Assembly (NCBI GenBank): GCA_014729085.1
Contig: WJKM01000006.1
Location: 88,016 to 152,015 of the forward strand
DNA length: 64,000 nucleotides
Source: Candidatus Dojkabacteria bacterium
GTDB lineage: Bacteria > Patescibacteriota > Dojkabacteria > B142 > WJKM01
Direction: 5' to 3'
The translations under genes were made by a program, and so were the position numbers. Of the stretch, positions 8 to 45,521 are shown piece after piece. The notes under the pieces are model-generated. The model saw nothing but the letters and a program-made list of their open reading frames with translations. It was not told where the DNA came from and did no database searches. Positions within the stretch are counted from its first letter, which is position 1. Each line of letters starts with the position of its first letter.

Positions 8-2476
8 GTGAGCCAGGAAGATTTGCTTGCCTACCAGCCAGTTATAGATACTCTTCGAGCTAATCCTGACCCTGACAAATATTCCAGTGATATTACGCGT
101 TGGACGGAACTTATGAAAGTTCCTGAGCAGGAATCGATACAGATTACAACTAGAGTTGAAAATGGAAGGTTAGAATTACAAGTACCAGATGGTACATGGG
201 TTGATATCATGGGGGGAGAAAATGATTTATTGCATAGACTTAATTTTCTTCAGGGGCAAGTTGATGCAGATACACCACTGGAGATTGTCGGAGGATGGAC
301 TCTTGACGTTCAAGAGTTGAGGGATTTAGTGCAAGAGGCGGCTCCACAAATTGGGGAGTATTATTTGCAAAATTTGAGAAATATTCAAGCTGAAAGGATG
401 AATATTGATTCACTCGAAGATGTAATTGAAGGTATTAGAGAACCATTAAGATCAAATCATGTTTTGGAGCAGGTCTTCACAGACATGGGAGTTATTGAAC
501 AACTTCAAGTTTTGGAAGCTACTCTAACTGAAAGACGAGACTTAGAGGAGGAGGGTGAAGAAGCAGTTGAAGAAGCAAGAAATGGGAACATAGAGAGATT
601 ATTAGCTTGGTTGAAACGACTGGCAGATGCTAATCTTTCTCGTGACGCAATTGTTGCACGGTTAAGAATGTATGGGATAGATATTAATTTGCTCCCATAT
701 GTTGGTAGGAGAAACTTTATAACTTTAGTTAGAACTATTGGAAACTTATTTCCTTCACTCAGAACTTTTACTGAATCATTGAGAGCAAGGGTAGGGAAAG
801 AAGTAGATGAGGAAATGCAGGAGCAAGATGAAGAAGATCAGGATCTTACGCAATCAAGAAGGTTAACAAGGGTAGATTTAGCTAGTTTAGTAAGAGGTGA
901 AGAGGTAGAGGGGGTGGATTTGTCTCCCCTAGAGCCTGAGGACCCTAATGCAGTAGCAGACTTTTTAAATATCATTAGAGATGAGGGCTTAGAACATTTT
1001 GTTCAGAGAAATCAAATAATTGAAATTCTAAGAAACGCAATTAACCAACGTATTGAACAAGACGATACTGATGAGACAACTAGAGAAGCCTTTGGAAGAA
1101 TTAGAGCAGAATATATTGCAGCCGGAGTCCCGCCTGAATACTTACCAGATTTACCAAGAGAGACTCCTGAAGAACGTGCTGAAAGAATGGAAGATATTGA
1201 GGGGGAGTTCGATGTGCTTCAACCACTTACAGTTTTGGCTTACATAAATGAAGAAATTGAGCAGAGGAATATCCAAGAGAGTACGCGTCAGAGAAGATAT
1301 GATCAAATTACTTTTGCTTTAAAAGAAGCTATCGCTCAAGGTAGGATTGAACTTGAGCCACCAAATGATAGAGTAGACTTGGCGCATGAATATTTGGATG
1401 CTGGAGTCCGTCCTACATCTGTTTATGCTGAAGTACTAATGGGAGAACATTATAAAGAAGCTCATAAGAAAGTAGAAGAATTTGCTCCTATAATGAGAGT
1501 ATTTTATGGTGAGGCTAGGCCTCCAGCAAATCCAGAAACTGTATGGAAAGAAAGGGTTTTACCAGAGTTAAGGAGCCAAAGGCCATTTGAGACTAGTCAG
1601 TATGAAGCATTAATACTAGTCCTTGCCCATGATATGTTCACCGAAGGTGTAAAGTGGTTAAGTTCTGTTGATAGGGTTATAGGAGCGGAAGGAGTAGATG
1701 GTGTTATGAAGGTAACTATGGAGATGATTGAAGAAAAATGTGATGTTTTTGAGGAAGGATCTCTATGGTGGAAGAAAGAGGGAATTAAACCTGTTAAGTA
1801 TGATGATATAAGAGGAGAATATGCAGGAAATCTATATGACGGGCCTCTTGCTGAATATTTAGGTCAATTAGATACGGTTGTAGTTGAAGGCATGATTGAT
1901 GATAATGCTGAAATGATAACATCATATATAAATTTACAAACTGAGTTTTGGATGGCACGACGAGAACAACAGAGAAAACTCGATAGACTCAACCGTCAGG
2001 AGAATTGGGATAGAATTAAATGGATTGCTGGTCTTGGAGGAGGGGCTGCGTTAATTGGGTTTGGAATCGCTGAATTATCCCTTGGTCCCGAGTTAATAGG
2101 TTTATTAGAATCAGCTGGAGAGATACCTTTGGTACCTAAATTAGGTGCACTTAGTCTTTCTACTATGGGTATAAGGTTACTTTGGGAGAGATTAGGAAAA
2201 CCGGAGGAAAGAGATAAAAAGGAGGATGAAAGGAATAAGGCTGAATTACAATTACGGCGAACTGAGAATAAATATGAAAGTGATTTAATGAGAAGGTTGC
2301 GTATGGTGAAAAGATCTGTTAGAAATTCGGTTTTAAACGTGTGTCAAACAGCTCCAGGCTCTAATGCTGCTACAGAGGCTGTTGTTTCTTATAGAAATTC
2401 AATGTCTCAATCTAATGGAGGTTGGCAGACACAGTTTAGAGGTGTTGGTGGACAGTCCTTTGCTTATGGGACATAA
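8..2476 (+). CDS. Large acidic coiled-coil hypothetical protein (822 aa) with a C-terminal hydrophobic/TM segment. The frame is open to the window edge, so it is probably truncated at the 5' end.
   Basis: Long ORF starting with GTG at 8 and no in-frame stop before position 1. Very D/E-rich. Gly-rich hydrophobic stretch 'GLGGGAALIGFGIAELSLGPELIGLL' near residue 680. No recognisable catalytic motif. Confidence 0.55.
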   Translation: MSQEDLLAYQPVIDTLRANPDPDKYSSDITRWTELMKVPEQESIQITTRVENGRLELQVPDGTWVDIMGGENDLLHRLNFLQGQVDADTPLEIVGGWTLDVQELRDLVQEAAPQIGEYYLQNLRNIQAERMNIDSLEDVIEGIREPLRSNHVLEQVFTDMGVIEQLQVLEATLTERRDLEEEGEEAVEEARNGNIERLLAWLKRLADANLSRDAIVARLRMYGIDINLLPYVGRRNFITLVRTIGNLFPSLRTFTESLRARVGKEVDEEMQEQDEEDQDLTQSRRLTRVDLASLVRGEEVEGVDLSPLEPEDPNAVADFLNIIRDEGLEHFVQRNQIIEILRNAINQRIEQDDTDETTREAFGRIRAEYIAAGVPPEYLPDLPRETPEERAERMEDIEGEFDVLQPLTVLAYINEEIEQRNIQESTRQRRYDQITFALKEAIAQGRIELEPPNDRVDLAHEYLDAGVRPTSVYAEVLMGEHYKEAHKKVEEFAPIMRVFYGEARPPANPETVWKERVLPELRSQRPFETSQYEALILVLAHDMFTEGVKWLSSVDRVIGAEGVDGVMKVTMEMIEEKCDVFEEGSLWWKKEGIKPVKYDDIRGEYAGNLYDGPLAEYLGQLDTVVVEGMIDDNAEMITSYINLQTEFWMARREQQRKLDRLNRQENWDRIKWIAGLGGGAALIGFGIAELSLGPELIGLLESAGEIPLVPKLGALSLSTMGIRLLWERLGKPEERDKKEDERNKAELQLRRTENKYESDLMRRLRMVKRSVRNSVLNVCQTAPGSNAATEAVVSYRNSMSQSNGGWQTQFRGVGGQSFAYGT

Positions 2477-2505: not shown

Positions 2506-3138
2506 ATGAATTACATTATAGATTCCACAATTATTTCAATTTTTTTGAAAAAAGCAATAGATAGTAAAGAAGTACAGAATTTCTTAGATTCTTATGAGGA
2601 AAAGGTTACACAGATTACTAGCCAAGTTATTTATAATTATTTAAGTAAGGAAGGCGGTATGAATGATAAAGAAATTGAAGGGGAGTTAAATAAATTTGTA
2701 GACTCTGGAGAAGACCCCCCAACTTTTTTCCAACCAGAAGTTTTACTTGAAATTGATAAGCAAATTGAGAAGTATAATGAATCTATTTACGCTAAATTTG
2801 AAAAACAGATGTCATTAGAGGATCAAAAAAGAGCTAATGATTATATTCAAAAGCAGTTGCAGTTGGCACAGAAAAATTTTGAGAAAATGAGACAGGCAGC
2901 CTTGGAAGAACTGGATGAAGTAGAAAAGGAATTTGCGCAAATTGGTCGAGTACGTTCCTGGGAGGAAAAACAAAGGGCAGAAAATAAGGCCCAGCAACCT
3001 CAGAGCGGACAAAAAAATAAATACGAACCTCCACAAGCAGTACCTAAGGAGCAAGTAAATGCCTCTCAACAAAATCAGCAAGCTTCACAAATTCAACATA
3101 AAGCGAGTATACCCACACAAGATCCAGTTTTAGATTAA
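2506..3138 (+). CDS. Hypothetical coiled-coil protein with a Q-rich C-terminus.
   Basis: 210-aa ORF directly downstream of the preceding gene on the same strand. Low-complexity Q/K/E composition. Confidence 0.45.
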   Translation: MNYIIDSTIISIFLKKAIDSKEVQNFLDSYEEKVTQITSQVIYNYLSKEGGMNDKEIEGELNKFVDSGEDPPTFFQPEVLLEIDKQIEKYNESIYAKFEKQMSLEDQKRANDYIQKQLQLAQKNFEKMRQAALEELDEVEKEFAQIGRVRSWEEKQRAENKAQQPQSGQKNKYEPPQAVPKEQVNASQQNQQASQIQHKASIPTQDPVLD

Positions 3139-3928: not shown

Positions 3929-6900
3929 GATTAAAGCAACTCAAGAGTGTATGGTGGATGTCTTGGTTGAAAAAGCTGAAGAAGGACGTGGTAGCCTGCG
4001 ATAAGCTTCGGGGAGCTGGCAAACAAGCTGTGATCCGAAGATGTCCGAATGGGGGAACCCATCCCGAGTAACATCGGGATACCTTATGTCGAATACATAG
4101 GCATAGAGGGAGAAAGCTGGTGAACTGAAACATCTCACTAACCAGAAGAAAAAATACCGAATGGTATTCCCTTAGTAGTGGCGAGCGAACGGGGATCAGC
4201 CCAAACTCAACAGGTAGGTAGAAGAAGATGCGTCTGCTTTGCGGACAATTTTTCGGATACACCCGTGCAGGGGTGGTTACAGTTGGGTGTTGTAGGAGGT
4301 AAACGTTGCTATACTGCAAAGTAGCAGAACAAGTGATAAATCTTATTTCTAATAGAACACGGTTGGAAAGCCAGACCATAGAGGGTAATAGTCCCGTATA
4401 TGAAAGGAATAAGACTTGTTGGTTTACGATCCTGAGTACCACGATCAATGTAGGATTTTGTGGGAATCAACACGAACCATCGTGTAAGGCTAAACACTTT
4501 TTCAAACCGATAGTGGACAAGTACCGAGAGGGAAAGATGAAAAGTACCCCTGATAGGGGAGTGAAATAGTTCCTAAAACCATATACTTACAAACAGTGGG
4601 AGCCACGTTTACGTGGTGACCGCGTGCCTATTGAAGAATGAGCCTGCGAGTTATTCTATGTTGCTTGCTTAAACTGTTTTGCAGTGTAGGCGCAGCGAAA
4701 GCGAGTCTGAAAGGGCGCGTGTAGCATAGAATAGACCCGAAACCGAGTGATCTACGCATGAGCAGGTTGAATCTCGATGAGAATCGAGAGGAGGACCGAA
4801 CCAGTGAATGTTTCAAAATTCTTGGATGACTTGTGTGTAGCGGTGACACGCCAAACGAACTCGGAAATAGCTGGTTCTCCTCGAAATAACTTTAGGGTTA
4901 GCCTTGGTGTTAAATTCTTACGGGGGTAGAGCACTGATTGGATTGTGGGGGGTATATACCTTACTGCGTTCTCTCAAACTCCGAATACCGTAAGTTTTTT
5001 ACCAGGAGTTAGACTATGGGGGCTAAGCTCCATCAGTCGAAAGGGAAACAGCCCAGATCATCAGCTAAGGTCCTTAAATTTATGCTCAGTGGGAAAGGAT
5101 GTGAAATTTCTTAAACAGCCAGGAGGTTCGCTTAGAGGCAGCTATCCTTTAAAGAGTGCGTAACAGCTCACTGGTCGAGAGATTTTGCGCCGACAATTCA
5201 ACGGGGCTAAAGCATAATACCGAAGCCATGACTTTATGTACCTATGGTACATAAGGGGTAGAGGAGCATTGTGTTCAGCTGTGAAGGTGTACTGTAAAGT
5301 ATGCTGGAGCGTACACAAGAGAGAATGCAGGCATGAGTAGCGTAATCTCGGTGAAAACCCGGGACACCGAATATCTAAGGTTTCCACAGCAATGTCAGTC
5401 ATCTGTGGGTTAGTCGGTCCTAAGTCAAGGCCGAATGGCGTAGACGATGGACAACTGGTTAATATTCCAGTACCGCCTTTAATTCGTTATTAGTTAAGGA
5501 AGGACTAAATGTGCAACTTCCAAGCCTCGACAGGTCGGGGTATAAATAGTAAGCCAGTCTGATTTGGTAAATCCGGTCAGGCGAAATCTCTGCTTCGGCG
5601 GAAAATAGGTGAGCTATGATGTAGAACTGAAGCGCAAGCGGATGTGATTTGGAATAGTATGTTTACAAGAAAATTTTCTATACGAGAATTAAGGGTGACC
5701 GTACCGCAAACCGACACTGGTAGATTGGTAGAGTATACCAAGGTGTACGGATGATCCTTTGTTAAGGAACTCGGCAAATTACTACCGTACGTTCGCAATA
5801 AGGTAGCCCCGGAAAGCGCTTGCGCTTATACGGGGGGCACATAAGAGGCTCGATCGACTGTTTAACAAAAACACAGGTTCCTGCTAACCCGTAAGGGGAT
5901 GTATAGGAGCTGACGCCTGCCCAATGCCAGAAGATTACGGAAGGAGGTTATCTGCCTTTGGCAGAGAAGCTTCCAACTTAAGTCCTGGTGAATGGCGGCT
6001 GTAACTATAACGGTCCTAAGGTAGCGAAGTTCCTCGGCGCTTAATAGGCGTCCCGCATGAAGGGCGTAACGAGTTGGGCACTGTCTTAACAAGGAGTCCG
6101 GCGAAATTGAAGTGGCGGTGAAGATGCCGTCTACCCGCACCTGGACAAAAAGACCCCGGGATCTTTACTGTATCTTGACATTGAAATAAAGGTTAAGTTG
6201 TAGAGCGTAGGAGGGAGACTTTGAAGTCTCAGCGCTAGCTGGGATGGAGTCAAGCATGCAACACCTCCCTTCGTTTCTTTTGTTTCTAACCATCTTCCGT
6301 AAGCCGGAAATGAGACAGTGTCAGGTGGGCAGTTTGACTGGGGCGGTTTCATACTAAAGGATAACGTATGATTGCAAAGGTCGACTCAAGCTGGATGGAA
6401 ATCAGCTGAAGAGCATAATGGTATAAGTCGGCTTTACTGTGAGAGGGACACCTCGAGCAGTCACGAAAGTGGGCCATAGTGACCCTTTGGCAACAAATGG
6501 GAGTGCCATTGTTTAAAGGATAAAAGTTACCCCGGGGATAACAGGCTAGTCTTGCCCAAGCGCTCATAGCGACGGCAAGGTTCGGCACCTCGATGTCGGC
6601 TCGTCGTATCCTGGAGCTGGATAAGGTTCCAAGGGTTGGGCTGTTCGCCCATTAAAACGGCACGTGAGCTGGGTTCAAACCGACGTGAGTCAGGTTGGTC
6701 TCTATCCGGTGTGGGCGTTCGAATTCTGAGGAGATTGCTCCCTAGTACGAGAGGATCGGGAGGAGGTAGCCTCTAGTGCACCAGTTGTTCCACCAGGAGC
6801 ATCGCTGGGTAGCTACGCTGCTATTGTGATAAGCGCTGAAAGCATATAAGCGTGAAGCCAGCTCCAAGATGAGAATTCGTCTGAGACCTGCGGAAGACTA

Positions 6901-6972
6901 CCGCGTTGATAGGCTCTAGGTGTAAGCACAGTAATGTGTTTAGCCAAGGAGTACTAATCGGTCGAAAGCTTT
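3929..6972 (+). rRNA. rrl: 23S ribosomal RNA (large subunit).
   Basis: 5' end 'GGTGGATGTCTTGG...GAAGGACGTGGTAGCCTGCGATAAGCTTCGGGGAGCTG'. Internal universally conserved blocks such as 'GACGGAAAGACCCCGGG', 'GGATAACAGGCT' and 'GAGCTGGGTTCA'. 3' end '...GTACTAATCGGTCGAAAGCTT'. About 3.04 kb. Confidence 0.93.
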
Positions 6973-7106
6973 AGTTTCATTATTTTTCGTGAAATTAGTT
7001 TCATCTTATTATTCTACTATTCGGTTTTTAGAAAACAAATTCATAATTAGTATTTGGTATAATTGTTTACAGTCAATAGAAATTGCAAATTATTTGATTT
7101 TCAATT

Positions 7107-7223
7107 TCTGGTGATTGTAGCGGAGCGGAACCACCTCTTCCCATCCCGAACAGAGAAGTGAAACTCTCCAGCGCCGACGATACTAGAGATTAGGTTCTCT
7201 TGGAAAATAGGTCATCGCCAGAA
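7107..7223 (+). rRNA. rrf: 5S ribosomal RNA.
   Basis: 'CCCATCCCGAACAGAGAAGTGAAAC' 5S loop C/helix III signature. The terminal helix 'tctggtgat...atcgccaga' closes the molecule. Lies about 135 nt downstream of the 23S 3' end. Confidence 0.9.
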
Positions 7224-25254: not shown

Positions 25255-28200
25255 ATGGGTAAAACAAAAAGCAATAATTCAGATGGAGAGCAGTATAATC
25301 ATGAAATGATCGAAGAAGCAATTCGAAAGGACTGGGCTTCAACGGGGCTTTATGATACCCCGGAAGGTGTCACGAAAGAGAATAAGTATTATATACTGCC
25401 TCAACTTCCTTATCCATCCGGAAGCGGTTTACATGTAGGACATGCAGAAGTTTATACGTCTTGTGATATTTTTGCAAGATTTATGCGTATGAAAGGAAAA
25501 AAGGTTTTACAGGTGATGGGTTGGGATGCCTTTGGACTCCCTGCCGAAAATTTTGCAATAAAAACGAATATACACCCAAGAATTAATACAGATAAAGCCA
25601 TCGATAATTTCCGTGAACAGATTAGTAAGATGGGGGTTTCTGTAGATTGGAATAGAGAAGTAGGGAGCCATAATCCAGGTTATTACAAATGGACGCAATG
25701 GTTTTTTAAACTTATGTATGACCAAGGACTTGCATATAGAAAGAACCAGGCGGTAAATTGGTGCGAGAGTTGTAAAACTGTACTTGCAAATGAACAAGTT
25801 GTAGAAGGTGCATGTGAAAGATGCGATACCGAAGTTATACAGAAAAATATGGAGCAGTGGTTTTTGGAAATAACTAAATATGCCGACAGACTTAAAGAAG
25901 ATTTGGATAAGATTGATTGGCCTGAGGAGACAGTAAAAAGACAAAGAGATTGGATAGGAAAGAGTAAAGGTGCAAACGTCAACTTTAAATGCAAAGTTCA
26001 GCATTTAGATTTGTTCTTTTCTACTAGTAACAAAGCAAAAGTCAAAAGGCTTAAAAAGATTCTAGATAAAACTGACTTAAAATACACTCTTTATACTGCA
26101 GATGATTTAGATATAGAATCCTTAAATATTAAAGAAGATGGAGATTTGGAAAGCAATGCCAAGAAAAAAGCATTAGCATATTTCGATAAAGTCAATATGC
26201 CTGTAGTTGCAGTAGACACAGGTTTATTTATAGAGGATGAGCATATAGATCCGGTTACAGTAAAAAGAAATGCTTTGGAGGGAAAGAAGGAAACAGAACT
26301 TTCACAAGAAGAAATTGGTAAGCTTATGAATTCTTATTATAAAAGCATTGCAGCTAAACATGGTGGAGAAGTAGAAGCCTATTTCAAGGATGTCTTTGCA
26401 TTTGTTTTTCCGGGTGGTAGAGTTCAAATAGCAGAGATAAGAAGGCCAATAGTCATTACTGATAAACCCAAGGGAGAACTTGATATTTATATGCCTATTA
26501 GAAATCTTTATAAAACCAAGGCAACTGGCAAATATGTTATTGAATATGGAGACAAAGGTTTCGACTTAGAGTTTGAGGAATACTTTAAAGTATTTAAGGA
26601 CGTATTTTCCTATAATTTGGAAGTATTTACGACACGGCCAGATACTTTGTACGGTGCTACTTTTATGGTAATTGCGCCGGAGCATGAATTAATTGAGAGG
26701 TTAGGCAGTACAATCCAAAATTATAAAGAGGTCAAAAAATATGTTGAACAGGCGAGATTAAAATCTGAGTTGGAAAGGCAGCAGCAAGAAAAAGAAAAGA
26801 CGGGGGTTAGAATTAGGGGAATTTATGCGATTAATCCAGTCACAAAAGAAAGAATACCAATCTTCGTAGCTGATTATGTACTTATTACTTATGGTACAGG
26901 TTCAATTATGGGAGTCCCAGCCCATGATGAAAGGGATTTCGAATTTGCATTAAAATATGACTTGTCCATAATTCCTGTAATTGATTTTGAAAAGGATGAA
27001 TATATTTGTTTTATAAAAAAAGAATGGAGGAAGAACTACCAAGATTTTTTAAAAGAAGCGGAAAAACTTGGAACAAAATTTTTAAAAAAAGGAAAGAATA
27101 AATCATTGTTATCTATTAAAAGTAATGATTTAAAAAATTTTATTAAATTAGTGAGAGATACAAGCCAAGATGGAAGTTGGTTAGATTTGGTTGGCAAGGA
27201 ATATATTGTAGTTTGGGAAGATGGTGAAGTTGAATATGTTAAAAGATTTATTAATGAAAAAGATGTTTTTGACAGACAAAAAGATACAGAGCCTGATGTT
27301 CGTGAGTTCAATAATGTTTGGGAAATGCTTTTTAATTCTACGGAATATAAGGATTATGTCTGTTATAGCGGACGCGGAAAAATTATTAATTCGGAAGATT
27401 GGAATGGATGGAAATACCCAGATGATTTTGATAAGGTACTTGATTATATAGAAGAGAAAGGTATAGGAAAAAGAAATACGATTTTTAAACTTCGAGATTG
27501 GTCTGTTTCAAGACAACGTTTTTGGGGAGCCCCTATTCCCATGCTAATAAAGGAATTAAAAAATGAAGATTCGGTAGAACTTAATGAAGTTTATAAAAGC
27601 AGTCCTGAAAAGGTAGTCCAAATGCATGCGTGGGATAGTGATCCTCAGGCTCACTTCCATTCATGGGTTGAAAAGAAGCTAGAGAAAAAAGGTATCAAAT
27701 GTGTAACACCTCAGCTTCCAAAACCGGTTAAACCAAATTTCAACGAATGGGTTCAAACGGGTGCAGATTTATTATATGAAAACTCAGAGAACTCAATTTT
27801 AGTTGGTAGAAGCTTAAGTGTTTGGAGTGCTTTGAAGGTTGCTGAAAAGAAAAAATTAAGAAAGTTAATTTTATTGTGTCCAACATTGAATATCGACAGT
27901 TGGTACAAACGTATTGAAGATGTTGTGGATAAAAAAGATGTTGCAGAATCAATTATTAATTTCGTAAAGAACAATAAAATAAATTTTGAAGCGGTTGAGA
28001 GAAATGTAGGAGAAGTTGTATTTTTCTTGTCTACGGATGATCCATATATTCCCCTAAGCGAAACAGAAGAATACATCCAAAAGATTTTTCCATGTGCTCG
28101 CATTCGAAGGTTCAGAGAATCGGGACACTTTGATGCTGAAAGTGGCTATAATACTTTCCCCGAGTTAATTGAGGAGATTGAGAAGAGTGTAAGATTAGAC

Positions 28201-29283
28201 TTAAAGAAGGTTAAACAGGAAGATTTGCCTGTCCTTCTACCTGATGATGTTGATTTCAAACCAACGGGCCAATCACCATTAACTTATTCGGATTCCTTCC
28301 AAGAAGATGTAGAAAAGATTTATGGAAAGGGATGGAGAAGAGAAGTTGATACTCTAGATACCTTTATGTGTTCGAGTTGGTATTATTATAGATATTTAGA
28401 TCCAAATAATGATGAAGCTTTTGCCTCAAAAGAATCACTTAAGAAATGGATGCCAGTTGATTTTTATATAGGTGGCCCCGAACATGTTAACGGACATTTG
28501 TTGTATTCACGATTTTTTACTAAGGTGCTTTATGATGCAGGATATATAGATTTTGATGAGCCTTTTAAATTTCATAGACATCAGGGGATGATTTTAGGTG
28601 AGGATAACAGAAAAATGAGCAAGCGATGGGGAAATGTGGTAAATCCAACAGATGTTGTTAATAAATATGGTGCAGACACCTTGAGAGTGTATGAAATGTT
28701 TATGGGACCTCTTGAACAGACTAAGGCTTGGAGTGATTCTGCGGTAAGAGGAGTGAGACGTTTTTTGCAGAGAGTTTACGATTATTCGCAAAAAGTTATT
28801 GATAATGAGTCAAACTCAAATGAAGAAGAAATTAAGGTCAGAATCGATCAGTTAATTAAAAAAATAAGTGAAGATACTAAAGAATTAAAGTTTAATACAG
28901 CAATAGCAGAGTTTATGAAATTCATGAATTTTGCAGAAGATAATAAGGTTGACATAGGAACCTGGAAGAAATTTATGCTCGTTCTTGCTCCTTATGCACC
29001 TTTTATTACAGAATACATTTGGAAGAAGTTGCTTGGTAATAAAGACTCTATACACTTAGAAGAATGGCCTCAATACGATGAGAAGCTCTTATCTTCCCAA
29101 AAGATTACAATTGCTGTACAGGTTATGGGTAAAACAAGAGGAGAAATATTAATTGATCCAGAAGAAAAGAAGGAGGACGCAGTTAATATTGCAGAAAACC
29201 ACGAAAACGTATCGAAGTATCTTAAGGACGGATATAAAAAAGCAATATATGTGAAAGGAAAAATTATTAATTTTGTTATCTAG
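25255..29283 (+). CDS. leuS: Leucyl-tRNA synthetase (1342 aa) carrying three large in-frame domain insertions.
   Basis: HIGH motif 'PYPSGSGLHVGHAEVYT'. KMSKS motif 'KMSKRWGN'. 'DWIGKSKGANVNF' and 'TTRPDTLYG' (CP1 editing) are separated by about 210 extra residues. 'GTGSIMGVPAHDERDFEFALKYDLSIIPVI' and 'RDWSVSRQRFWGAPIP' are both present. Confidence 0.92.
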   Translation: MGKTKSNNSDGEQYNHEMIEEAIRKDWASTGLYDTPEGVTKENKYYILPQLPYPSGSGLHVGHAEVYTSCDIFARFMRMKGKKVLQVMGWDAFGLPAENFAIKTNIHPRINTDKAIDNFREQISKMGVSVDWNREVGSHNPGYYKWTQWFFKLMYDQGLAYRKNQAVNWCESCKTVLANEQVVEGACERCDTEVIQKNMEQWFLEITKYADRLKEDLDKIDWPEETVKRQRDWIGKSKGANVNFKCKVQHLDLFFSTSNKAKVKRLKKILDKTDLKYTLYTADDLDIESLNIKEDGDLESNAKKKALAYFDKVNMPVVAVDTGLFIEDEHIDPVTVKRNALEGKKETELSQEEIGKLMNSYYKSIAAKHGGEVEAYFKDVFAFVFPGGRVQIAEIRRPIVITDKPKGELDIYMPIRNLYKTKATGKYVIEYGDKGFDLEFEEYFKVFKDVFSYNLEVFTTRPDTLYGATFMVIAPEHELIERLGSTIQNYKEVKKYVEQARLKSELERQQQEKEKTGVRIRGIYAINPVTKERIPIFVADYVLITYGTGSIMGVPAHDERDFEFALKYDLSIIPVIDFEKDEYICFIKKEWRKNYQDFLKEAEKLGTKFLKKGKNKSLLSIKSNDLKNFIKLVRDTSQDGSWLDLVGKEYIVVWEDGEVEYVKRFINEKDVFDRQKDTEPDVREFNNVWEMLFNSTEYKDYVCYSGRGKIINSEDWNGWKYPDDFDKVLDYIEEKGIGKRNTIFKLRDWSVSRQRFWGAPIPMLIKELKNEDSVELNEVYKSSPEKVVQMHAWDSDPQAHFHSWVEKKLEKKGIKCVTPQLPKPVKPNFNEWVQTGADLLYENSENSILVGRSLSVWSALKVAEKKKLRKLILLCPTLNIDSWYKRIEDVVDKKDVAESIINFVKNNKINFEAVERNVGEVVFFLSTDDPYIPLSETEEYIQKIFPCARIRRFRESGHFDAESGYNTFPELIEEIEKSVRLDLKKVKQEDLPVLLPDDVDFKPTGQSPLTYSDSFQEDVEKIYGKGWRREVDTLDTFMCSSWYYYRYLDPNNDEAFASKESLKKWMPVDFYIGGPEHVNGHLLYSRFFTKVLYDAGYIDFDEPFKFHRHQGMILGEDNRKMSKRWGNVVNPTDVVNKYGADTLRVYEMFMGPLEQTKAWSDSAVRGVRRFLQRVYDYSQKVIDNESNSNEEEIKVRIDQLIKKISEDTKELKFNTAIAEFMKFMNFAEDNKVDIGTWKKFMLVLAPYAPFITEYIWKKLLGNKDSIHLEEWPQYDEKLLSSQKITIAVQVMGKTRGEILIDPEEKKEDAVNIAENHENVSKYLKDGYKKAIYVKGKIINFVI

Positions 29284-38353: not shown

Positions 38354-39892
38354 TTATATATTTTCTTCTGTAAGTTTTAGATTATATAAATTGTTTTTAC
38401 CTTCAGATGTTTCTGTTTCTTTTGAATCCTGAATTAACATGAGTAAAGCTTTATTGTTTGATAGCATATAAAAACTTTCATCTACAATTCCATCATTAGT
38501 AAATAAATCAATTAGATTTTCTCCATTTCGATCCATAATTGTGATAGTTTTTTGGCCACTTTCGATACTTTTAGCTAAGAGAACGATGTGAGTTGAAATA
38601 GTGTTCCATTGAATTGAATGTATCTCAGGATTGTAATTTTCTAATATTAGATTGTGTTTAGAGATAATTTCATTTGTTACTTTATTTTCCTTGATTGTAT
38701 AAGAGAAGATTTTATTATCCTTCTGATAAAGTAGAGAGAGCCCATCTTTTGAAAAATCAAGAATATTAATATTTTGTCCTATTCTATCAATGAAGCTGTA
38801 TTGCGTATTTAGGTAATAATACTCATCTTTTGTTTTGTAAACAATATATTTCCCATTATTTCTATCTATATCTAGATATTCAATTTCCTTTGGCAGGCTT
38901 TGATTCTCAAGTGAAATTTTTTTCTTGGTTTCATCTTTGTAATAATACAAATTATTATCTTTATTTGATTTGAAAACTAAGGTATCTCCATTAATTGCGT
39001 ATATTGGTTCATGATCTGGATGGTAAGTGATTATGATATTTTTTTGATTACTTAGAACAAGCTCAGTTAGAAGTGTTTTGTCTTTTACTATAAGAGAAGT
39101 TGAACCTCTAAACCATTTGAACTGTTCTGGAGTAAAACCTAACATTCTTTCAATTGAAAGCAGATCTTCTGGTTTCGGATTTGGATTGGGGCTTTCTGTT
39201 TCAAAAATATAATGGGGGGTTTTATCAGATTTAAATAAGATTTTTTTATTATCAGGAGAGGGGAGAATTTTATATGAACCAGAATTAATAGCATCCTCTA
39301 TTTCTGGGATTATGTTAATAATCTTAACGGGTTGACTTTCAATCGTATTGAATATGGTAGAGATATCAGTTAATTGGAGTTGGAAAACACCATTTTCTAC
39401 ACCATTGGGAGATTTGCTGACAACGTAATAAACAAAATCGCCATATTCAGCAAAAAAAACTTTCTCTATATTTGTTGCTGGTAATCTTAGTTCTAAATTT
39501 GGATTTTCAGGAAATAGGAAAGGATTGATATCTGTAATCATCCCTCCTTCTATATTAAGGATGCTTTCCCATTCATTGTATCCCTCCATAGTTAAGTTCA
39601 ATTTATGTTCGCCTGGTTCGATGTTAGCTATTATATTTTCCTTTATTTCTTTAGGTTCACCATCTATTTTTGCTGTTAATTTCTCTTTATAGTCATCGTT
39701 ATTAATTCTGATAGACCCCGTTTGTATTATGATTGGTTCTCGAGTAGCGGAGGGGTTTTCATTATTTCCTAGAATACTGCTTAGGTTGATCTTCCTGCTG
39801 TTAGCGGATAACAAAGCCCACAAAAGCATTACGATAAATGCAATAGAGGAAGAAAATATCAATAATTTTTTTTGTGTATTAAATTTTTTCAT
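38354..39892 (-). CDS. Membrane-anchored PEGA-domain protein with a beta-propeller/TolB-like C-terminal region.
   Basis: N-terminal TM helix. PEGA-like 'IEPGEHKLNLTMEGYNEWESILNIEGGMITDI'. C-terminal region is repetitive and beta-rich. Confidence 0.55.
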   Translation of the reverse strand: MKKFNTQKKLLIFSSSIAFIVMLLWALLSANSRKINLSSILGNNENPSATREPIIIQTGSIRINNDDYKEKLTAKIDGEPKEIKENIIANIEPGEHKLNLTMEGYNEWESILNIEGGMITDINPFLFPENPNLELRLPATNIEKVFFAEYGDFVYYVVSKSPNGVENGVFQLQLTDISTIFNTIESQPVKIINIIPEIEDAINSGSYKILPSPDNKKILFKSDKTPHYIFETESPNPNPKPEDLLSIERMLGFTPEQFKWFRGSTSLIVKDKTLLTELVLSNQKNIIITYHPDHEPIYAINGDTLVFKSNKDNNLYYYKDETKKKISLENQSLPKEIEYLDIDRNNGKYIVYKTKDEYYYLNTQYSFIDRIGQNINILDFSKDGLSLLYQKDNKIFSYTIKENKVTNEIISKHNLILENYNPEIHSIQWNTISTHIVLLAKSIESGQKTITIMDRNGENLIDLFTNDGIVDESFYMLSNNKALLMLIQDSKETETSEGKNNLYNLKLTEENI

Positions 39893-43073: not shown

Positions 43074-45521
43074 TTATAAAGAGTAGTTTGCTTTTAGTAC
43101 TTTTTTTACATCTTTGATTGAAATAGGGGTGGAGGAGTCTGATGGTTTAGTAAATTCCATTAACTCATTTGGGTTTGCCTTCCCATTCCATAAATAGCCT
43201 AGGGATTTTGGGTTATTAACAATATATTGCCCAGTTTTTATGGCCCATTTCAAATAAAGATCTTTGGTAAAAGCTCCACTACTAGATGTATCTGATATAC
43301 CTCTCTTGAATCTTACTGTGTAGTTCCAAGCTTTGTTTTCGTCTTGGATGTATTTATATGCTTTGTTGTAAACAGCTTTAAAATCCGAAATCAAGGAGGT
43401 GTTCATTAATATAATAAGTAAGCTTGGGATTTTAAAGACTTTGTCTTTTTTTCTTGAGTGGCCTACTATTGTAGCTAGCCCTTCTTCTGTAATTATATAA
43501 CGTGGGGTACCTATTTTCCAAATTAATTCCTTCTTTTTCTTCCCATTATGCAGCCGTAATAAGTGTGTGAGTATTTCATGTCCTATTGCATTGTTTAGTT
43601 GATCTTCACTCCTACCACGGTTTTCTGGTAGTTTTATTCTTCCAGAACTTTTTCCTATAGACATTTTAGTTCTCTTATCGCTAAATTTAATAGGATAATC
43701 GAGTTTGTATTTGTCGAGAGCTTCCTGCATTCTTTTTCCTACTTCTCGGGCAGGGATCTCTGGATTCTTATCTATTGTTATTTTATGATTCTTAAGGATT
43801 TTTCTAGCAAGTCTCCTTATTTTACGGTTAGGTTGCCCAAAAAGTTCAATTGATCTTTGAGTAAAGGTATGTGGGTCATGTCCAATTGTTTCCATTAAAT
43901 ATACCATTTTTTTATATTCTTTAATTTTGTTTCTATAGATTCGTCCTATACTGTCAAATGGAGGATTTAAAAGTTCTAGTTTGTCAAGTATTTTATCTGG
44001 ATCAAATTTTAAAGGTTTGTATTCAAATTGTGGATTATAATCACAATTTTTCTTGAAAAACTTTTCTTTTTCTTCTTTAACATTCCGAGGTCTTAATGCA
44101 GGAATAATGCTTAATATTTTATTGAATTCTTCGAATGCTTCATCCAATTTTTTAATTTTAGTTGGTTTGAGCAATGCATAAATATTTTCTTTTAATTTAC
44201 TTTCCTCTGGACCCTCGATTTTTTTAACGTCAATTATGAAATTCCCTAGATCTTTTCTTCCTATTGACAGATTATAACCTTTGATTTGATCATTTATTAT
44301 CCTGCATTCACAATCAATTGTTTGATTGCCTAATTTTATTTTTATAAATACTATCTCGTACTCACCTTCCTCTACCTTTTCTTCCAGAATGCCAAGTTTC
44401 ATAGCTATTTGGGAACTAATGATCGAGGTTCTTCGGCTTGTATCAACCAAACTCATTGTTTGAACTTTTTTATCTTTGAAAATTATAGTCGCGGGCATTA
44501 TATTACTAATAATTTCTTTTCCAGAGATCCTTTCTATTTTTTCTTCAACTTCACCACCAAACAGATCTTTTCCTATTCTTATACCATGATCAGAATTTTT
44601 AACTTCCAGACCTTTAGCTTTATACAGTCTCCAAGCAAGGCCTCTTCTGTTTACTATTTGAATAGATAATCCGGGCCTTGCATTAAGTTCTACAATGACA
44701 GGTCCTTTTTCATTATCTATAAGGAAGTCAACAGCTCCAAAATTAAGTCCGGAAGCGTCAATAGCTTTAGAGGCGTATTTTAAGATTTCGTTCCAATGGG
44801 GAATTTCTAGTCCCTGGAATGGTAGTTTTGTTCCAGGTACAAATTCAATCGGATATCCTTTCCCCCCACTTCCTTTTCCATAAGTAGAAGTAGTAGTAAT
44901 GCCGCTTGCAAGGTCTATACCAGTACCAACAGCGCCTTTTATCATATTAGCCTTTCCTTTTGATTCTTTTGTAGGAAATCGAACATAGGCCATTATAGGA
45001 ATTTTATTGTATGTTACAACTCTTATATCGGGAGTTCCTTTATAAGTGTAGTTTTTTAGGTCATCATGTGTTCGTATTCTTTCCTCAAAAAAAGCTTGAT
45101 CCGGTTCGTTTCTAAGGGAATATTTTCCATCAAGTATTTCCAGGGCCATGCTTTTAATTTGATATGCAGATACTCTGCTACCATCGGATTTAATCCAATT
45201 TCCGTTTTTGTCTCTATTATAAAAAATTTCGATACCCGCTCCTTGTGCCCCCTGTACTGGTTTCATGACAAAACTTGCAGGTAATTTGTTCCAGTTGAAT
45301 GCTTCAAATTCTGAATAATCCTTTATGACTCCCAGTAATTCTGGTGAGGGAATATTTTCTGAAGCCAATATTTTTTTTGTAAGTAATTTATCGTCAGCAA
45401 TTTTCCTGCCTCTGGTATTACCTTCTTTTTGTATGAATAGTAGATTTCTCGCATTTTGTCCGAGAACCTTATTTCTATTCCTCAGTATTTGAAAGATTGT
45501 CATCTTCGTTTTTAGGATCAA
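43074..45521 (-). CDS. Tri-domain fusion: RimK-type ATP-grasp ligase, retropepsin-like (PF05618-type) protease, and MATCAP/DUF1704-like HExxH metallocarboxypeptidase.
   Basis: N-terminal domain: 'NARNLLFI...ADDKLLTKKIL', 'SFVMKPVQGAQGAGIEIF' and 'GAVDFLIDNEKGPVIVELNARPGLSIQ'. Middle domain: 'SLVDTSRRTSII...SIGRKDLGNFIIDV'. C-terminal domain: 'AIGHEILTHLL' (HExxH) and 'EEGLATIVGH' (QEGLA-type motif). Confidence 0.7.
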   Translation of the reverse strand: MILKTKMTIFQILRNRNKVLGQNARNLLFIQKEGNTRGRKIADDKLLTKKILASENIPSPELLGVIKDYSEFEAFNWNKLPASFVMKPVQGAQGAGIEIFYNRDKNGNWIKSDGSRVSAYQIKSMALEILDGKYSLRNEPDQAFFEERIRTHDDLKNYTYKGTPDIRVVTYNKIPIMAYVRFPTKESKGKANMIKGAVGTGIDLASGITTTSTYGKGSGGKGYPIEFVPGTKLPFQGLEIPHWNEILKYASKAIDASGLNFGAVDFLIDNEKGPVIVELNARPGLSIQIVNRRGLAWRLYKAKGLEVKNSDHGIRIGKDLFGGEVEEKIERISGKEIISNIMPATIIFKDKKVQTMSLVDTSRRTSIISSQIAMKLGILEEKVEEGEYEIVFIKIKLGNQTIDCECRIINDQIKGYNLSIGRKDLGNFIIDVKKIEGPEESKLKENIYALLKPTKIKKLDEAFEEFNKILSIIPALRPRNVKEEKEKFFKKNCDYNPQFEYKPLKFDPDKILDKLELLNPPFDSIGRIYRNKIKEYKKMVYLMETIGHDPHTFTQRSIELFGQPNRKIRRLARKILKNHKITIDKNPEIPAREVGKRMQEALDKYKLDYPIKFSDKRTKMSIGKSSGRIKLPENRGRSEDQLNNAIGHEILTHLLRLHNGKKKKELIWKIGTPRYIITEEGLATIVGHSRKKDKVFKIPSLLIILMNTSLISDFKAVYNKAYKYIQDENKAWNYTVRFKRGISDTSSSGAFTKDLYLKWAIKTGQYIVNNPKSLGYLWNGKANPNELMEFTKPSDSSTPISIKDVKKVLKANYSL

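What the first reader, a model, noticed from the sequence alone, without database searches (positions are those of the whole stretch)
25987..26619. LeuS insert 1 resembles a Ham1/ITPase (non-canonical NTP pyrophosphatase) fold
The insert is collinear with the Ham1/Mj0226 motifs.
- 'LFFSTSNKAKVKRLKKIL' corresponds to 'IYFATGNPNKIKEANIIL'.
- 'MPVVAVDTGLFIEDEH' corresponds to 'PVIVEDSGFFVEAL'.
- 'EAYFKDVFAFVFPGG' corresponds to 'NAYFKTVIGYCDENG'.

The C-terminal 'SHR' catalytic motif is not evident, so the domain may be a degenerate nucleotide or aminoacyl-adenylate binding module recruited into LeuS just before the CP1 editing domain.
Basis: partly seen in the sequence, partly recalled or inferred. 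Interest (0 to 1): 0.7.

Follow-up and report, generated by a model that had tools for sequence, protein, structure and literature searches.

The report
Ham1-type nucleotide hydrolase nested inside LeuS
The leucyl-tRNA synthetase of this tiny-genome (Dojkabacteria, CPR) bacterium carries a complete nucleotide-cleaning (Ham1/ITPase-type) enzyme domain inside a surface loop, and the same domain is also nested in other essential enzymes of CPR bacteria and DPANN archaea, a pattern I found described in no paper.

Summary
Residues 247-453 of a 1342-aa LeuS (nt 25993-26613) form a complete Ham1/ITPase-fold domain:
- Pfam PF01725 scores 44.9 bits against a cut-off of 22.5.
- hhalign gives 99.6% probability against a canonical Ham1.

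The domain replaces a 5-residue loop (T. thermophilus 237-241) in the first beta-hairpin of the CP1 editing domain. The LeuS itself is otherwise intact.

The SHR motif is indeed missing, but the domain is not degenerate. The phosphate, metal and catalytic residues N259, K262, E294, K305 and D321 are near-invariant in a distinct SHR-less Ham1 clade of about 180 clusters. That clade includes free-standing ~205-aa proteins.

The same domain is nested at three different LeuS sites. It is also nested in topoisomerase I, archaeal Cbf5, a thioredoxin-reductase-like protein and a class II aaRS. It is fused to NUDIX, HAD, Ser_hydrolase, GNAT and AlkD-like domains.

The best reading is a passenger house-cleaning NTP pyrophosphatase in a permissive loop, not an aminoacyl-adenylate module. 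LeuS-coupled sensing or regulation is not excluded. I rate it a new variant of a known kind, of moderate interest.

The parts
25255..29283 (+). LeuS ORF, 1342 aa plus stop. It is identical to NCBI 'class I tRNA ligase family protein [Candidatus Dojkabacteria bacterium]' (P0004).
   Evidence: TIGR00396, 865 bits; P0004, 100% identity. HVGH at aa 60, KMSK at aa 1120, TTRPDT at aa 459 and AHDERD at aa 556 are all present.
25255..25992 (+). LeuS N-terminal Rossmann half plus ZN1 and the first strand of the CP1 hairpin (aa 1-246; ends '...WIGKSKGANVNFKC').
   Evidence: Aligns to T. thermophilus LeuRS residues 2-236. PF00133 matches aa 24-235.
25993..26613 (+). Nested Ham1/ITPase-fold domain (aa 247-453), belonging to the SHR-less clade.
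26029..26040 (+). N259-K-A-K262, the N-x-x-K phosphate-binding motif ('STSNKAK'). It corresponds to RdgB N10/K13 and ITPA N16/K19.
   Evidence: K is invariant and N near-invariant in the family. Aligned to canonical 'ATSNKGK'.
26134..26136 (+). E294, the equivalent of ITPA Glu44 (metal and catalysis).
   Evidence: Invariant in A3. Present in 26/27 nested copies. Its role is taken from PMC9016069.
26167..26169 (+). K305, the equivalent of ITPA Lys56 / RdgB Lys53.
   Evidence: Invariant.
26215..26217 (+). D321 in 'VDTG', the equivalent of ITPA Asp72 / RdgB Asp69.
   Evidence: Invariant, 27/27 nested copies. Its role is taken from PMC9016069.
26614..26985 (+). CP1 editing domain, main part (aa 454-577). 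It includes the Thr-rich TTRPDT and AHDERD editing motifs.
   Evidence: Aligns to Tt 242-363. PF13603 matches aa 449-582.
26986..27363 (+). Second insert (aa 578-703) inside CP1, of unknown fold. This is the position where other CPR LeuS carry NUDIX, methyltransferase or HAD domains.
   Evidence: Unaligned between Tt 363 and 377. No Pfam hit. AF2 pLDDT only 59.5 and no fold match. One homologous insert, in P0093.
27547..28206 (+). Third insert (aa 765-984), an alpha/beta Ser_hydrolase (PF06821) domain after CP1.
   Evidence: PF06821 E 1e-12, aa 790-972. Unaligned between Tt 437 and 446. Common in CPR LeuS.
28207..29280 (+). Second Rossmann half (KMSKS), anticodon-binding domain and C-terminal domain (aa 985-1342). 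The leucine-specific domain is absent.
   Evidence: Aligns to Tt 446-580 and 637-876. PF08264 matches aa 1193-1306.

Best explanation
Residues 247-453 are a complete, independently folding member of a divergent, SHR-less branch of the Ham1/ITPase (non-canonical NTP pyrophosphatase) family. The domain is nested in the loop of the first beta-hairpin of the CP1 editing domain of an otherwise intact LeuS.

Inferred mechanism:
- The domain binds a nucleoside triphosphate and Mg2+ through N259, K262, E294, K305 and D321.
- It cleaves the alpha-beta phosphoanhydride to give NMP + PPi.
- Its base specificity differs from ITP/XTP because the SHR arginine is absent.

On this reading it is a passenger 'house-cleaning' enzyme. 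CPR bacteria and DPANN archaea repeatedly nest this domain, together with NUDIX, HAD and alpha/beta-hydrolase domains, in permissive surface loops of large essential proteins such as LeuS, TopA and Cbf5. That guarantees its expression and retention in a minimal genome, and it does not take part in leucylation chemistry.

Shown: fold, family, nesting site, conservation of active-site residues, multi-host distribution, and partner domains.
Inferred: catalytic activity, substrate class, and independence from LeuS function.
For: Fold and family:
- PF01725 scores above its gathering cut-off.
- A profile search of the PDB gives E 9e-16 to RdgB/Ham1.
- hhalign gives 99.6%.
- The AF2 model has pLDDT 95.7.
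- The top 30 Foldseek hits are all Ham1/RdgB/ITPA/KomB.

Complete gene-sized unit:
- It is collinear over its full length with free-standing proteins of 202-214 aa: P0001 (44% identity), P0002 (Pacearchaeota) and P0003.

Active site kept:
- K18, E50, K61 and D77 are invariant in 41 sequences.
- K18, K61 and D77 are kept in 27/27 and E50 in 26/27 nested or fused copies.

Host promiscuity:
- LeuS site A in many clusters, LeuS site C (P0158), and the LeuS anticodon-domain region (P0141).
- TopA (P0124, P0125), Cbf5 (P0139), a TrxR-like protein (P0172) and a class II aaRS (P0196).

House-cleaning partners:
- NUDIX fusions in both orders (P0170, P0176, P0206, P0252).
- A NUDIX + Ham1 tandem nested in LeuS (P0175, P0223) and in TopA (P0124).
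- HAD (P0158, P0175), Ser_hydrolase (P0132) and AlkD-like DNA_alkylation (P0258).

LeuS as a general insertion scaffold:
- CPR LeuS carry NUDIX, methyltransferase, HAD, ASCH and Ser_hydrolase domains at three hot-spot loops.

LeuS intact:
- The HIGH, KMSKS and editing motifs are all present.
Against: - No activity or substrate has been measured for any member of this SHR-less clade.
- LeuS is by far the commonest host: about 20 of about 27 nested or fused clusters, at three independent sites. That could reflect a functional link to LeuS rather than mere tolerance.
- Conserved binding residues are equally expected for a non-hydrolysing nucleotide sensor. KomB is a precedent (PMC13454610).
- The acidic residue before the invariant Asp (RdgB D68, ITPA E71) is Val here and is variable in the clade.
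- Domain geometry relative to the LeuS active sites could not be examined, because no coordinates were available.
Confidence: 0.55

Rival explanations
1. LeuS-coupled module. The Ham1-like domain binds or hydrolyses a nucleotide linked to aminoacylation, such as mis-activated aminoacyl-adenylate, Ap4A-type by-products or ATP analogues. Alternatively it senses a nucleotide and allosterically tunes LeuS synthesis or editing. This is.
For: - LeuS is the dominant host, and the domain has entered it at three different sites: the CP1 hairpin, after CP1, and the anticodon-domain region.
- A class II aaRS also hosts it (P0196).
- It sits within CP1, next to the Thr-rich editing motif.
Against: - The same clade is nested in TopA, Cbf5 and a TrxR-like protein, none of which forms adenylates. 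It also exists free-standing and fused to NUDIX, GNAT and AlkD-like domains.
- The closest LeuS relatives (55-61% identity) do without it.
- CPR LeuS tolerates many unrelated inserts at the same loops, so multi-site entry can be explained by scaffold permissiveness.
Confidence: 0.27
2. Catalytically dead structural or RNA-binding module. On this reading it is a degenerate ITPase fold kept only as a spacer, a dimerisation element or a tRNA-contact element.
For: - The SHR motif is absent.
- Pfam aligns only profile positions 1-144 of 186.
- All NCBIfam RdgB/Ham1 equivalog cut-offs are missed.
- Canonical ITPases are dimers, so the domain could dimerise LeuS. This rests on established knowledge and was not tested here.
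Against: - The N-x-x-K, Glu, Lys and Asp active-site residues are invariant or near-invariant in both nested and free-standing copies.
- SHR loss is shared by the whole clade, including stand-alone proteins that have no host to scaffold.
- The clade is repeatedly fused to other nucleotide hydrolases.
Confidence: 0.12
3. Artefact: a chance motif resemblance, or a mis-assembled or chimeric ORF.
For: None found.
Against: - The statistics are far beyond chance.
- An identical protein is in NCBI, on a 152-kb contig.
- More than 15 independent 50%-identity clusters of LeuS have the same architecture at the same loop.
- The reading frame is uninterrupted, GC is uniform (0.31-0.37), and there are no flanking repeats.
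Confidence: 0.01

Closest known systems
RdgB / Ham1 / ITPA non-canonical purine NTP pyrophosphatases (Pfam PF01725; e.g. T. maritima TM0159 1VP2, E. coli RdgB 1K7K/2Q16, human ITPA 2J4E)
   Different: - It has no SHR motif or Arg178 equivalent.
- The C-terminal half is not alignable by sequence. It carries clade-specific conserved residues: R94, Y118, GG126-127, R153, P170 and K182 in insert numbering.
- It scores below the NCBIfam equivalog cut-offs.
- It is nested inside another enzyme instead of being a free ~200-aa dimer.
KomB, the Ham1-like subunit of the Kongming anti-phage KomBC effector (8ZSG, 9XVC)
   Different: KomB is a separate polypeptide in a filament with a SIR2 protein and sits in a defence locus. 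Here there is no PADLOC hit and no SIR2, and the domain lies in a housekeeping gene. Sequence similarity is marginal (E 0.17).
Idiosyncratic insertions in class I aaRS: the CP1 editing domain, the leucine-specific domain and ZN1 of LeuRS
   Same: It is a whole domain nested in a loop of the synthetase, with both termini emerging from a beta-hairpin, as CP1 itself is.
   Different: Known LeuRS insertions serve aminoacylation or editing and are conserved across bacteria. This one is a stand-alone-type nucleotide hydrolase, is patchily distributed within CPR, and is shared with unrelated host enzymes.
CPR LeuS with NUDIX, Ser_hydrolase, HAD, methyltransferase or ASCH inserts (e.g. P0016, P0029, P0097, P0105; UniProt A0A1G2FBJ3 = P0126, which has a Ham1 insert)
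   Same: They use the same three insertion hot-spots, and several have the same Ham1-like insert at the same hairpin.
   Different: These are database entries with automatic annotation only. I found no paper describing them. The window's protein combines the Ham1-like insert, an unknown insert and a Ser_hydrolase.

Membership tests
Ham1/ITPase family (Pfam PF01725) | Score above the Pfam gathering threshold | tested here: met
   44.9 bits for the insert alone and 40.6 within the whole protein, against a cut-off of 22.5.
Ham1/ITPase family (Pfam PF01725) | ITPase-like alpha/beta fold over the full domain | tested here: met
Ham1/ITPase family (Pfam PF01725) | N-terminal (S/T)-x-N-x-x-K phosphate-binding motif | tested here: met
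   'STSNKAK', N259/K262. K is invariant and N near-invariant.
Ham1/ITPase family (Pfam PF01725) | Catalytic and metal-binding Glu and Asp (ITPA Glu44, Asp72) and Lys56 | tested here: met
   E294, D321 and K305 are invariant in the clade. Their roles are taken from PMC9016069.
Ham1/ITPase family (Pfam PF01725) | C-terminal SHR motif (ITPA Arg178), which selects the 6-keto purines ITP and XTP | tested here: not met
   No [ST]HR anywhere in the LeuS. It is absent from nearly all of about 90 full-length clade members listed; the one clearly canonical hit, P0217, has it.
Ham1/ITPase family (Pfam PF01725) | Mg2+-dependent NTP -> NMP + PPi activity | not testable with these tools
   This needs an enzyme assay.
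RdgB/HAM1 equivalog (NCBIfam TIGR00042; XTP/dITP diphosphatase NF011397) | Score above the curated equivalog cut-off | tested here: not met
   37.9 bits against 145.35, and 43.4 against 234. It should not be named an XTP/dITP diphosphatase.
Bacterial leucine--tRNA ligase (TIGR00396) | Equivalog cut-off, plus the HIGH, KMSKS and CP1 editing motifs | tested here: met
   865 bits against 548. HVGH at aa 60, KMSK at aa 1120, TTRPDT at aa 459, AHDERD at aa 556.
Kongming KomB-type defence sensor | Defence-locus context with a KomA deaminase and a KomC SIR2 partner | tested here: not met
   The domain is nested in LeuS. There is no PADLOC hit. Neighbours are housekeeping genes, including ClpB/C-like, RadA-like, Rho, S1 and ComEC.
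Intein or other mobile in-frame insertion | Splicing motifs, a homing endonuclease, flanking repeats, or a compositional anomaly | tested here: not met
   No intein Pfam hit in the LeuS. No flanking repeats. GC is uniform.

The most novel reading that the evidence does not exclude
CPR bacteria and DPANN archaea may possess a 'guild' of nucleotide house-cleaning domains: SHR-less Ham1, NUDIX, HAD and alpha/beta hydrolase. These are repeatedly and independently nested, singly or in tandem, into surface loops of essential enzymes such as LeuS, TopA, Cbf5, TrxR and class II aaRS. This would be a previously undescribed way for ultra-small genomes to secure expression of sanitising enzymes, or to couple them to the host enzyme. 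In LeuS specifically, the nested Ham1 domain could act as a nucleotide-pool sensor that gates charging or editing.
Probability: 0.3. Interest if true: 0.75.

Novelty: new variant of a known kind. Interest (0 to 1): 0.55.

Why it matters
aaRS specialists regard bacterial LeuRS architecture as settled: a Rossmann core plus ZN1, CP1, the leucine-specific domain (LSD), an anticodon-binding domain and a C-terminal domain. This LeuS lacks the LSD. It carries three extra inserts, two of them recognisable hydrolase domains, and one of those is a full Ham1-type nucleotide pyrophosphatase with an intact active site.

The wider pattern is that the same SHR-less Ham1 clade is nested in several unrelated essential enzymes and is habitually paired with NUDIX and HAD domains. 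This suggests how nucleotide-scavenging, minimal-genome organisms organise nucleotide-pool sanitation.

It also defines a Ham1 subfamily whose substrate is unknown and is probably not ITP or XTP. Both points can be tested directly with recombinant protein.

For annotation, these proteins are real LeuS and should not be labelled XTP/dITP diphosphatases.

Tried and rejected
- First homologue search with the insert alone: the word-indexed search returned only one hit. The exhaustive HMM search was needed to see the family.
- Assembly or frame artefact: rejected.
- Mobile DNA element or intein: no repeats, no GC anomaly and no intein domains.
- Defence-system membership: no PADLOC hit, and the gene context is housekeeping.
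- Alternative genetic code in the window: rejected. TGA ends 5 of 47 ORFs and long ORFs are intact.
- The relative P0001 does come from a UGA-recoded genome. There the database's 'W' aligns with conserved Gly, which suggests UGA = Gly.
- The search for related loci with the 41-sequence alignment failed because no stretch was conserved enough. The 2-sequence alignment found only 2 loci in GTDB representatives.
- The afdb50 fold library was unavailable.
- Domain-versus-host phylogeny: the NJ trees interleave nested and free forms, and place the window's LeuS among Ham1-less relatives. They are unbootstrapped and star-like, so gains and losses remain unresolved.
- Second insert (aa 578-703): the AF2 model has low confidence (59.5) and there is no significant fold match.
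- Inter-domain geometry could not be assessed, because model coordinates are not returned.
- Literature searches for Ham1 or NUDIX inserts in LeuRS or other aaRS of CPR found nothing relevant.
Full report
**1. What is at the coordinates**

The window is low-GC (about 0.33) and uses the standard genetic code: TGA terminates 5 of 47 long ORFs. It carries a 23S and a 5S rRNA gene and ordinary housekeeping genes.

ORF 25255..29283 (+) encodes a 1342-aa protein. This protein is a bacterial LeuS by NCBIfam TIGR00396, scoring 865 bits against a cut-off of 548. It is 100% identical to an NCBI protein from a Candidatus Dojkabacteria (CPR/Patescibacteria) MAG (P0004).

Alignment to T. thermophilus LeuRS (1H3N) breaks the protein into five collinear blocks. 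Three stretches are left unmatched:

| Unmatched stretch (aa) | Lies between Tt residues |
|---|---|
| 247-453 | 236 and 242 |
| 578-703 | 363 and 377 |
| 765-984 | 437 and 446 |

The leucine-specific domain (Tt about 581-636) is missing; the sequence there reads 'ILGEDNRKMSKRW'. The HIGH (HVGH, aa 60), KMSKS (KMSK, aa 1120) and editing motifs (TTRPDT, aa 459; AHDERD, aa 556) are all intact.

The first unmatched stretch is nt 25993-26613.

**2. Is the insert Ham1-like?**

Yes, by four independent lines of evidence.

- **Curated profile.** PF01725 Ham1p_like gives E 1.6e-11 and 44.9 bits against a gathering score of 22.5. Several NCBIfam XTP/dITP diphosphatase models also hit, but far below their equivalog cut-offs.
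- **Family profile against solved structures.** RdgB/Ham1 chains match at E 9e-16 to 1e-8.
- **Profile-profile alignment.** hhalign against a canonical Ham1 (P0217) gives probability 99.6% and E 1.8e-23.
- **Structure.**
  - An AF2 model built on a 41-sequence alignment has mean pLDDT 95.7 and pTM 0.90.
  - The top 30 Foldseek PDB hits are all Ham1/RdgB/ITPA/KomB (E down to 7e-11, about 205 aligned columns); Maf proteins follow.

That criterion is clearly not met.

**3. Is it degenerate?**

No. The SHR motif is absent, but this is a property of a whole clade.

An exhaustive HMM search of 1.84 billion representative proteins found 182 proteins at E <= 1e-3, of which 28 were at E <= 1e-30. Almost all of the full-length members lack SHR. 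Instead they share a 'G-x-x-D-x-x-F-P-x-R-S-L-Y...T-G-K-Y' C-terminal signature.

The insert is collinear, end to end, with free-standing proteins of 202-214 aa:
- P0001, 44% identical, from a 1.49-Mb UGA-recoded Patescibacteria chromosome.
- P0002, from a Pacearchaeota archaeon.
- P0003.

In a 41-sequence alignment the invariant residues are K18, E50, K61, D77 and P170 (insert numbering; K262, E294, K305, D321 and P414 in LeuS). Near-invariant are N15, N57, R94, Y118, G126, G127, R153 and K182.

N15/K18, E50, K61 and D77 align with the N-x-x-K motif, Glu44, Lys56 and Asp72 of ITPases. Glu44 and Asp72 are cited as crucial for catalysis in PMC9016069.

Across 159 aligned family members, the 27 nested or fused copies keep K18, K61 and D77 in 27/27 cases and E50 in 26/27. 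The triphosphate, metal and catalytic core is therefore under purifying selection whether the domain is free or nested. Only the base-recognition part differs from canonical ITPases.

**4. Where exactly it sits**

Plain CPR LeuS read 'WIGRSEGAxIxF x(5-15) LxVFTTRPDT'. In the window, and in more than 15 other LeuS clusters, that short loop is replaced by the ~205-aa domain: 'WIGKSKGANVNFKCKVQ[HLD...SYN]LEVFTTRPDT'.

The position corresponds to Tt 237-241. That is the loop of the first beta-hairpin of CP1, immediately upstream of the Thr-rich editing motif. The insert is therefore inside CP1, not before it.

**5. Context that changes the interpretation**

The 120 closest LeuS relatives show that CPR LeuS is a general scaffold for nested domains, with three hot-spot loops (positions given in plain-LeuS coordinates):

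| Hot-spot | Position | Domains found there |
|---|---|---|
| Site A | ~232-252 | Ham1-like, ASCH, NUDIX + Ham1 tandems |
| Site B | ~371-389 | NUDIX, methyltransferase, HAD |
| Site C | ~442-456 | Ser_hydrolase / alpha-beta hydrolase, HAD, and Ham1 in one case |

The SHR-less Ham1 domain itself occurs in many settings:
- at LeuS site A in many clusters;
- at LeuS site C together with HAD (P0158);
- in the LeuS anticodon-domain region (P0141);
- nested in topoisomerase I (P0125; P0124, which also carries NUDIX and a true intein);
- in an archaeal Cbf5/TruB, between the catalytic and PUA domains (P0139);
- in a thioredoxin-reductase-like flavoprotein (P0172);
- in a class II aaRS (P0196).

In smaller proteins it is fused to NUDIX in both orders (P0170, P0176, P0206, P0252) and to Ser_hydrolase (P0132). 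It is also fused to GNAT, an AlkD-like DNA-alkylation repair domain, an AAA_33 kinase and RNase PH_C.

NUDIX, HAD and Ham1 are the classical nucleotide 'house-cleaning' superfamilies (established knowledge). Their recurrent pairing, and the diversity of unrelated hosts, favours a sanitising hydrolase that rides in permissive loops. It argues against a module dedicated to leucyl-adenylate chemistry.

**6. Evolution**

At the DNA level there are no flanking repeats, and GC is uniform across the gene. The insertion is therefore not recent and is not an obvious mobile element.

An NJ tree of the domain interleaves nested and free-standing copies; for example, TopA P0124 groups with free P0001, and LeuS P0135 groups with the Ser_hydrolase fusion P0132.

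An NJ tree of the LeuS cores places the window's LeuS among Ham1-less relatives (P0005-P0008, 55-61% identity). Other Ham1-bearing LeuS branch elsewhere.

This indicates repeated gain and/or loss. The trees are unsupported and sampling is biased, so I leave the number of events open.

The window contains only this one Ham1-like sequence.

**7. Mechanism, rivals and confidence**

- **Best explanation (0.55).** A catalytically competent NTP pyrophosphatase with non-ITP/XTP specificity, acting as a passenger domain.
- **Main rival (0.27).** Coupling to LeuS, either by hydrolysis of adenylates or ApnA, or by nucleotide sensing that tunes charging or editing.
  - Three things keep it alive: the strong over-representation of LeuS as host, the three independent entry sites, and the KomB precedent for a Ham1 fold acting as a dITP sensor (PMC13454610).
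  - KomB is also among the best structural matches.
- **Dead structural module (0.12).** Disfavoured by the active-site conservation.
- **Artefact (0.01).** Excluded.

**8. Novelty**

Proteins of this architecture are already in public databases with automatic names. Examples are P0004, 'class I tRNA ligase family protein', and UniProt A0A1G2FBJ3, 'Leucine--tRNA ligase' of a Portnoybacteria MAG.

Full-text searches found no paper describing Ham1 or NUDIX domains nested in LeuRS or other aaRS, and none describing an SHR-less Ham1 clade.

I therefore rate it a new variant of a known kind: a known fold and family, in a new sub-clade and a new nested architecture. Interest is moderate (0.55). It would be higher if the guild-of-nested-hydrolases pattern, or a regulatory link to LeuS, were confirmed.

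Noticed in passing
window 27547-28206 (LeuS aa 765-984): A third LeuS insert is an alpha/beta Ser_hydrolase domain (PF06821, E 1e-12) placed just after CP1. This insert is very common in CPR LeuS. A free-standing Ham1-like + Ser_hydrolase fusion also exists (P0132), which hints that the two inserts work together.
   Followed up: partly
window 26986-27363 (LeuS aa 578-703): A second insert lies inside CP1, at the loop where other CPR LeuS carry NUDIX, methyltransferase or HAD domains. It has no Pfam hit and only one homologous insert (P0093). The AF2 model is poor (pLDDT 59.5) and has no fold match, so its identity is unknown.
   Followed up: partly
window ~28570-28630 (LeuS aa ~1105-1125): The leucine-specific domain (T. 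thermophilus ~581-636) is absent. The sequence runs 'HQGMILGEDNRKMSKRW', with a short 'GEDN' linker before KMSKS. This is reminiscent of the GKDG tetrapeptide of Mycoplasma mobile LeuRS (PMC3643597 abstract).
   Followed up: no
L001 10001-10645 (P0001 gene) and other family members (P0142, P0146): The closest free-standing relative comes from a 1.49-Mb Patescibacteria chromosome (OZ245768.1) with in-frame TGA codons. The database translates them as W, but they align with conserved Gly ('HGG' appears as 'NGW' or 'WW'). That points to UGA = Gly (code 25, Gracilibacteria-type) and mistranslation in the database.
   Followed up: partly
P0124 (1621-aa topoisomerase I, ENA contig of 271 kb): This TopA carries a nested NUDIX + SHR-less Ham1 tandem, and also a genuine intein with a LAGLIDADG endonuclease. 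Its Ham1 domain is the best hit to the profile built from the window's insert and P0001 (E 3e-88) and groups with the free-standing P0001 in the NJ tree.
   Followed up: partly
window 3930-6977 and 7107-7223: 23S rRNA (3048 nt against a 2925-nt model) and 5S rRNA are present without an adjacent 16S gene. Protein ORFs (8..2476, 2506..3138) lie upstream, so this looks like an unlinked rRNA arrangement, with about 120 extra nucleotides in the 23S.
   Followed up: no
window 43074-45521 (-): An 815-aa protein fuses a sugar-transfer-associated ATP-grasp domain (PF14397) to a MATCAP-like metallocarboxypeptidase domain (PF08014). This is an unusual pairing.
   Followed up: no
window 8-2476 (+) and 38354-39892 (-): Two large ORFs (822 aa and 512 aa) have no Pfam match at E <= 1e-5.
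   Followed up: no
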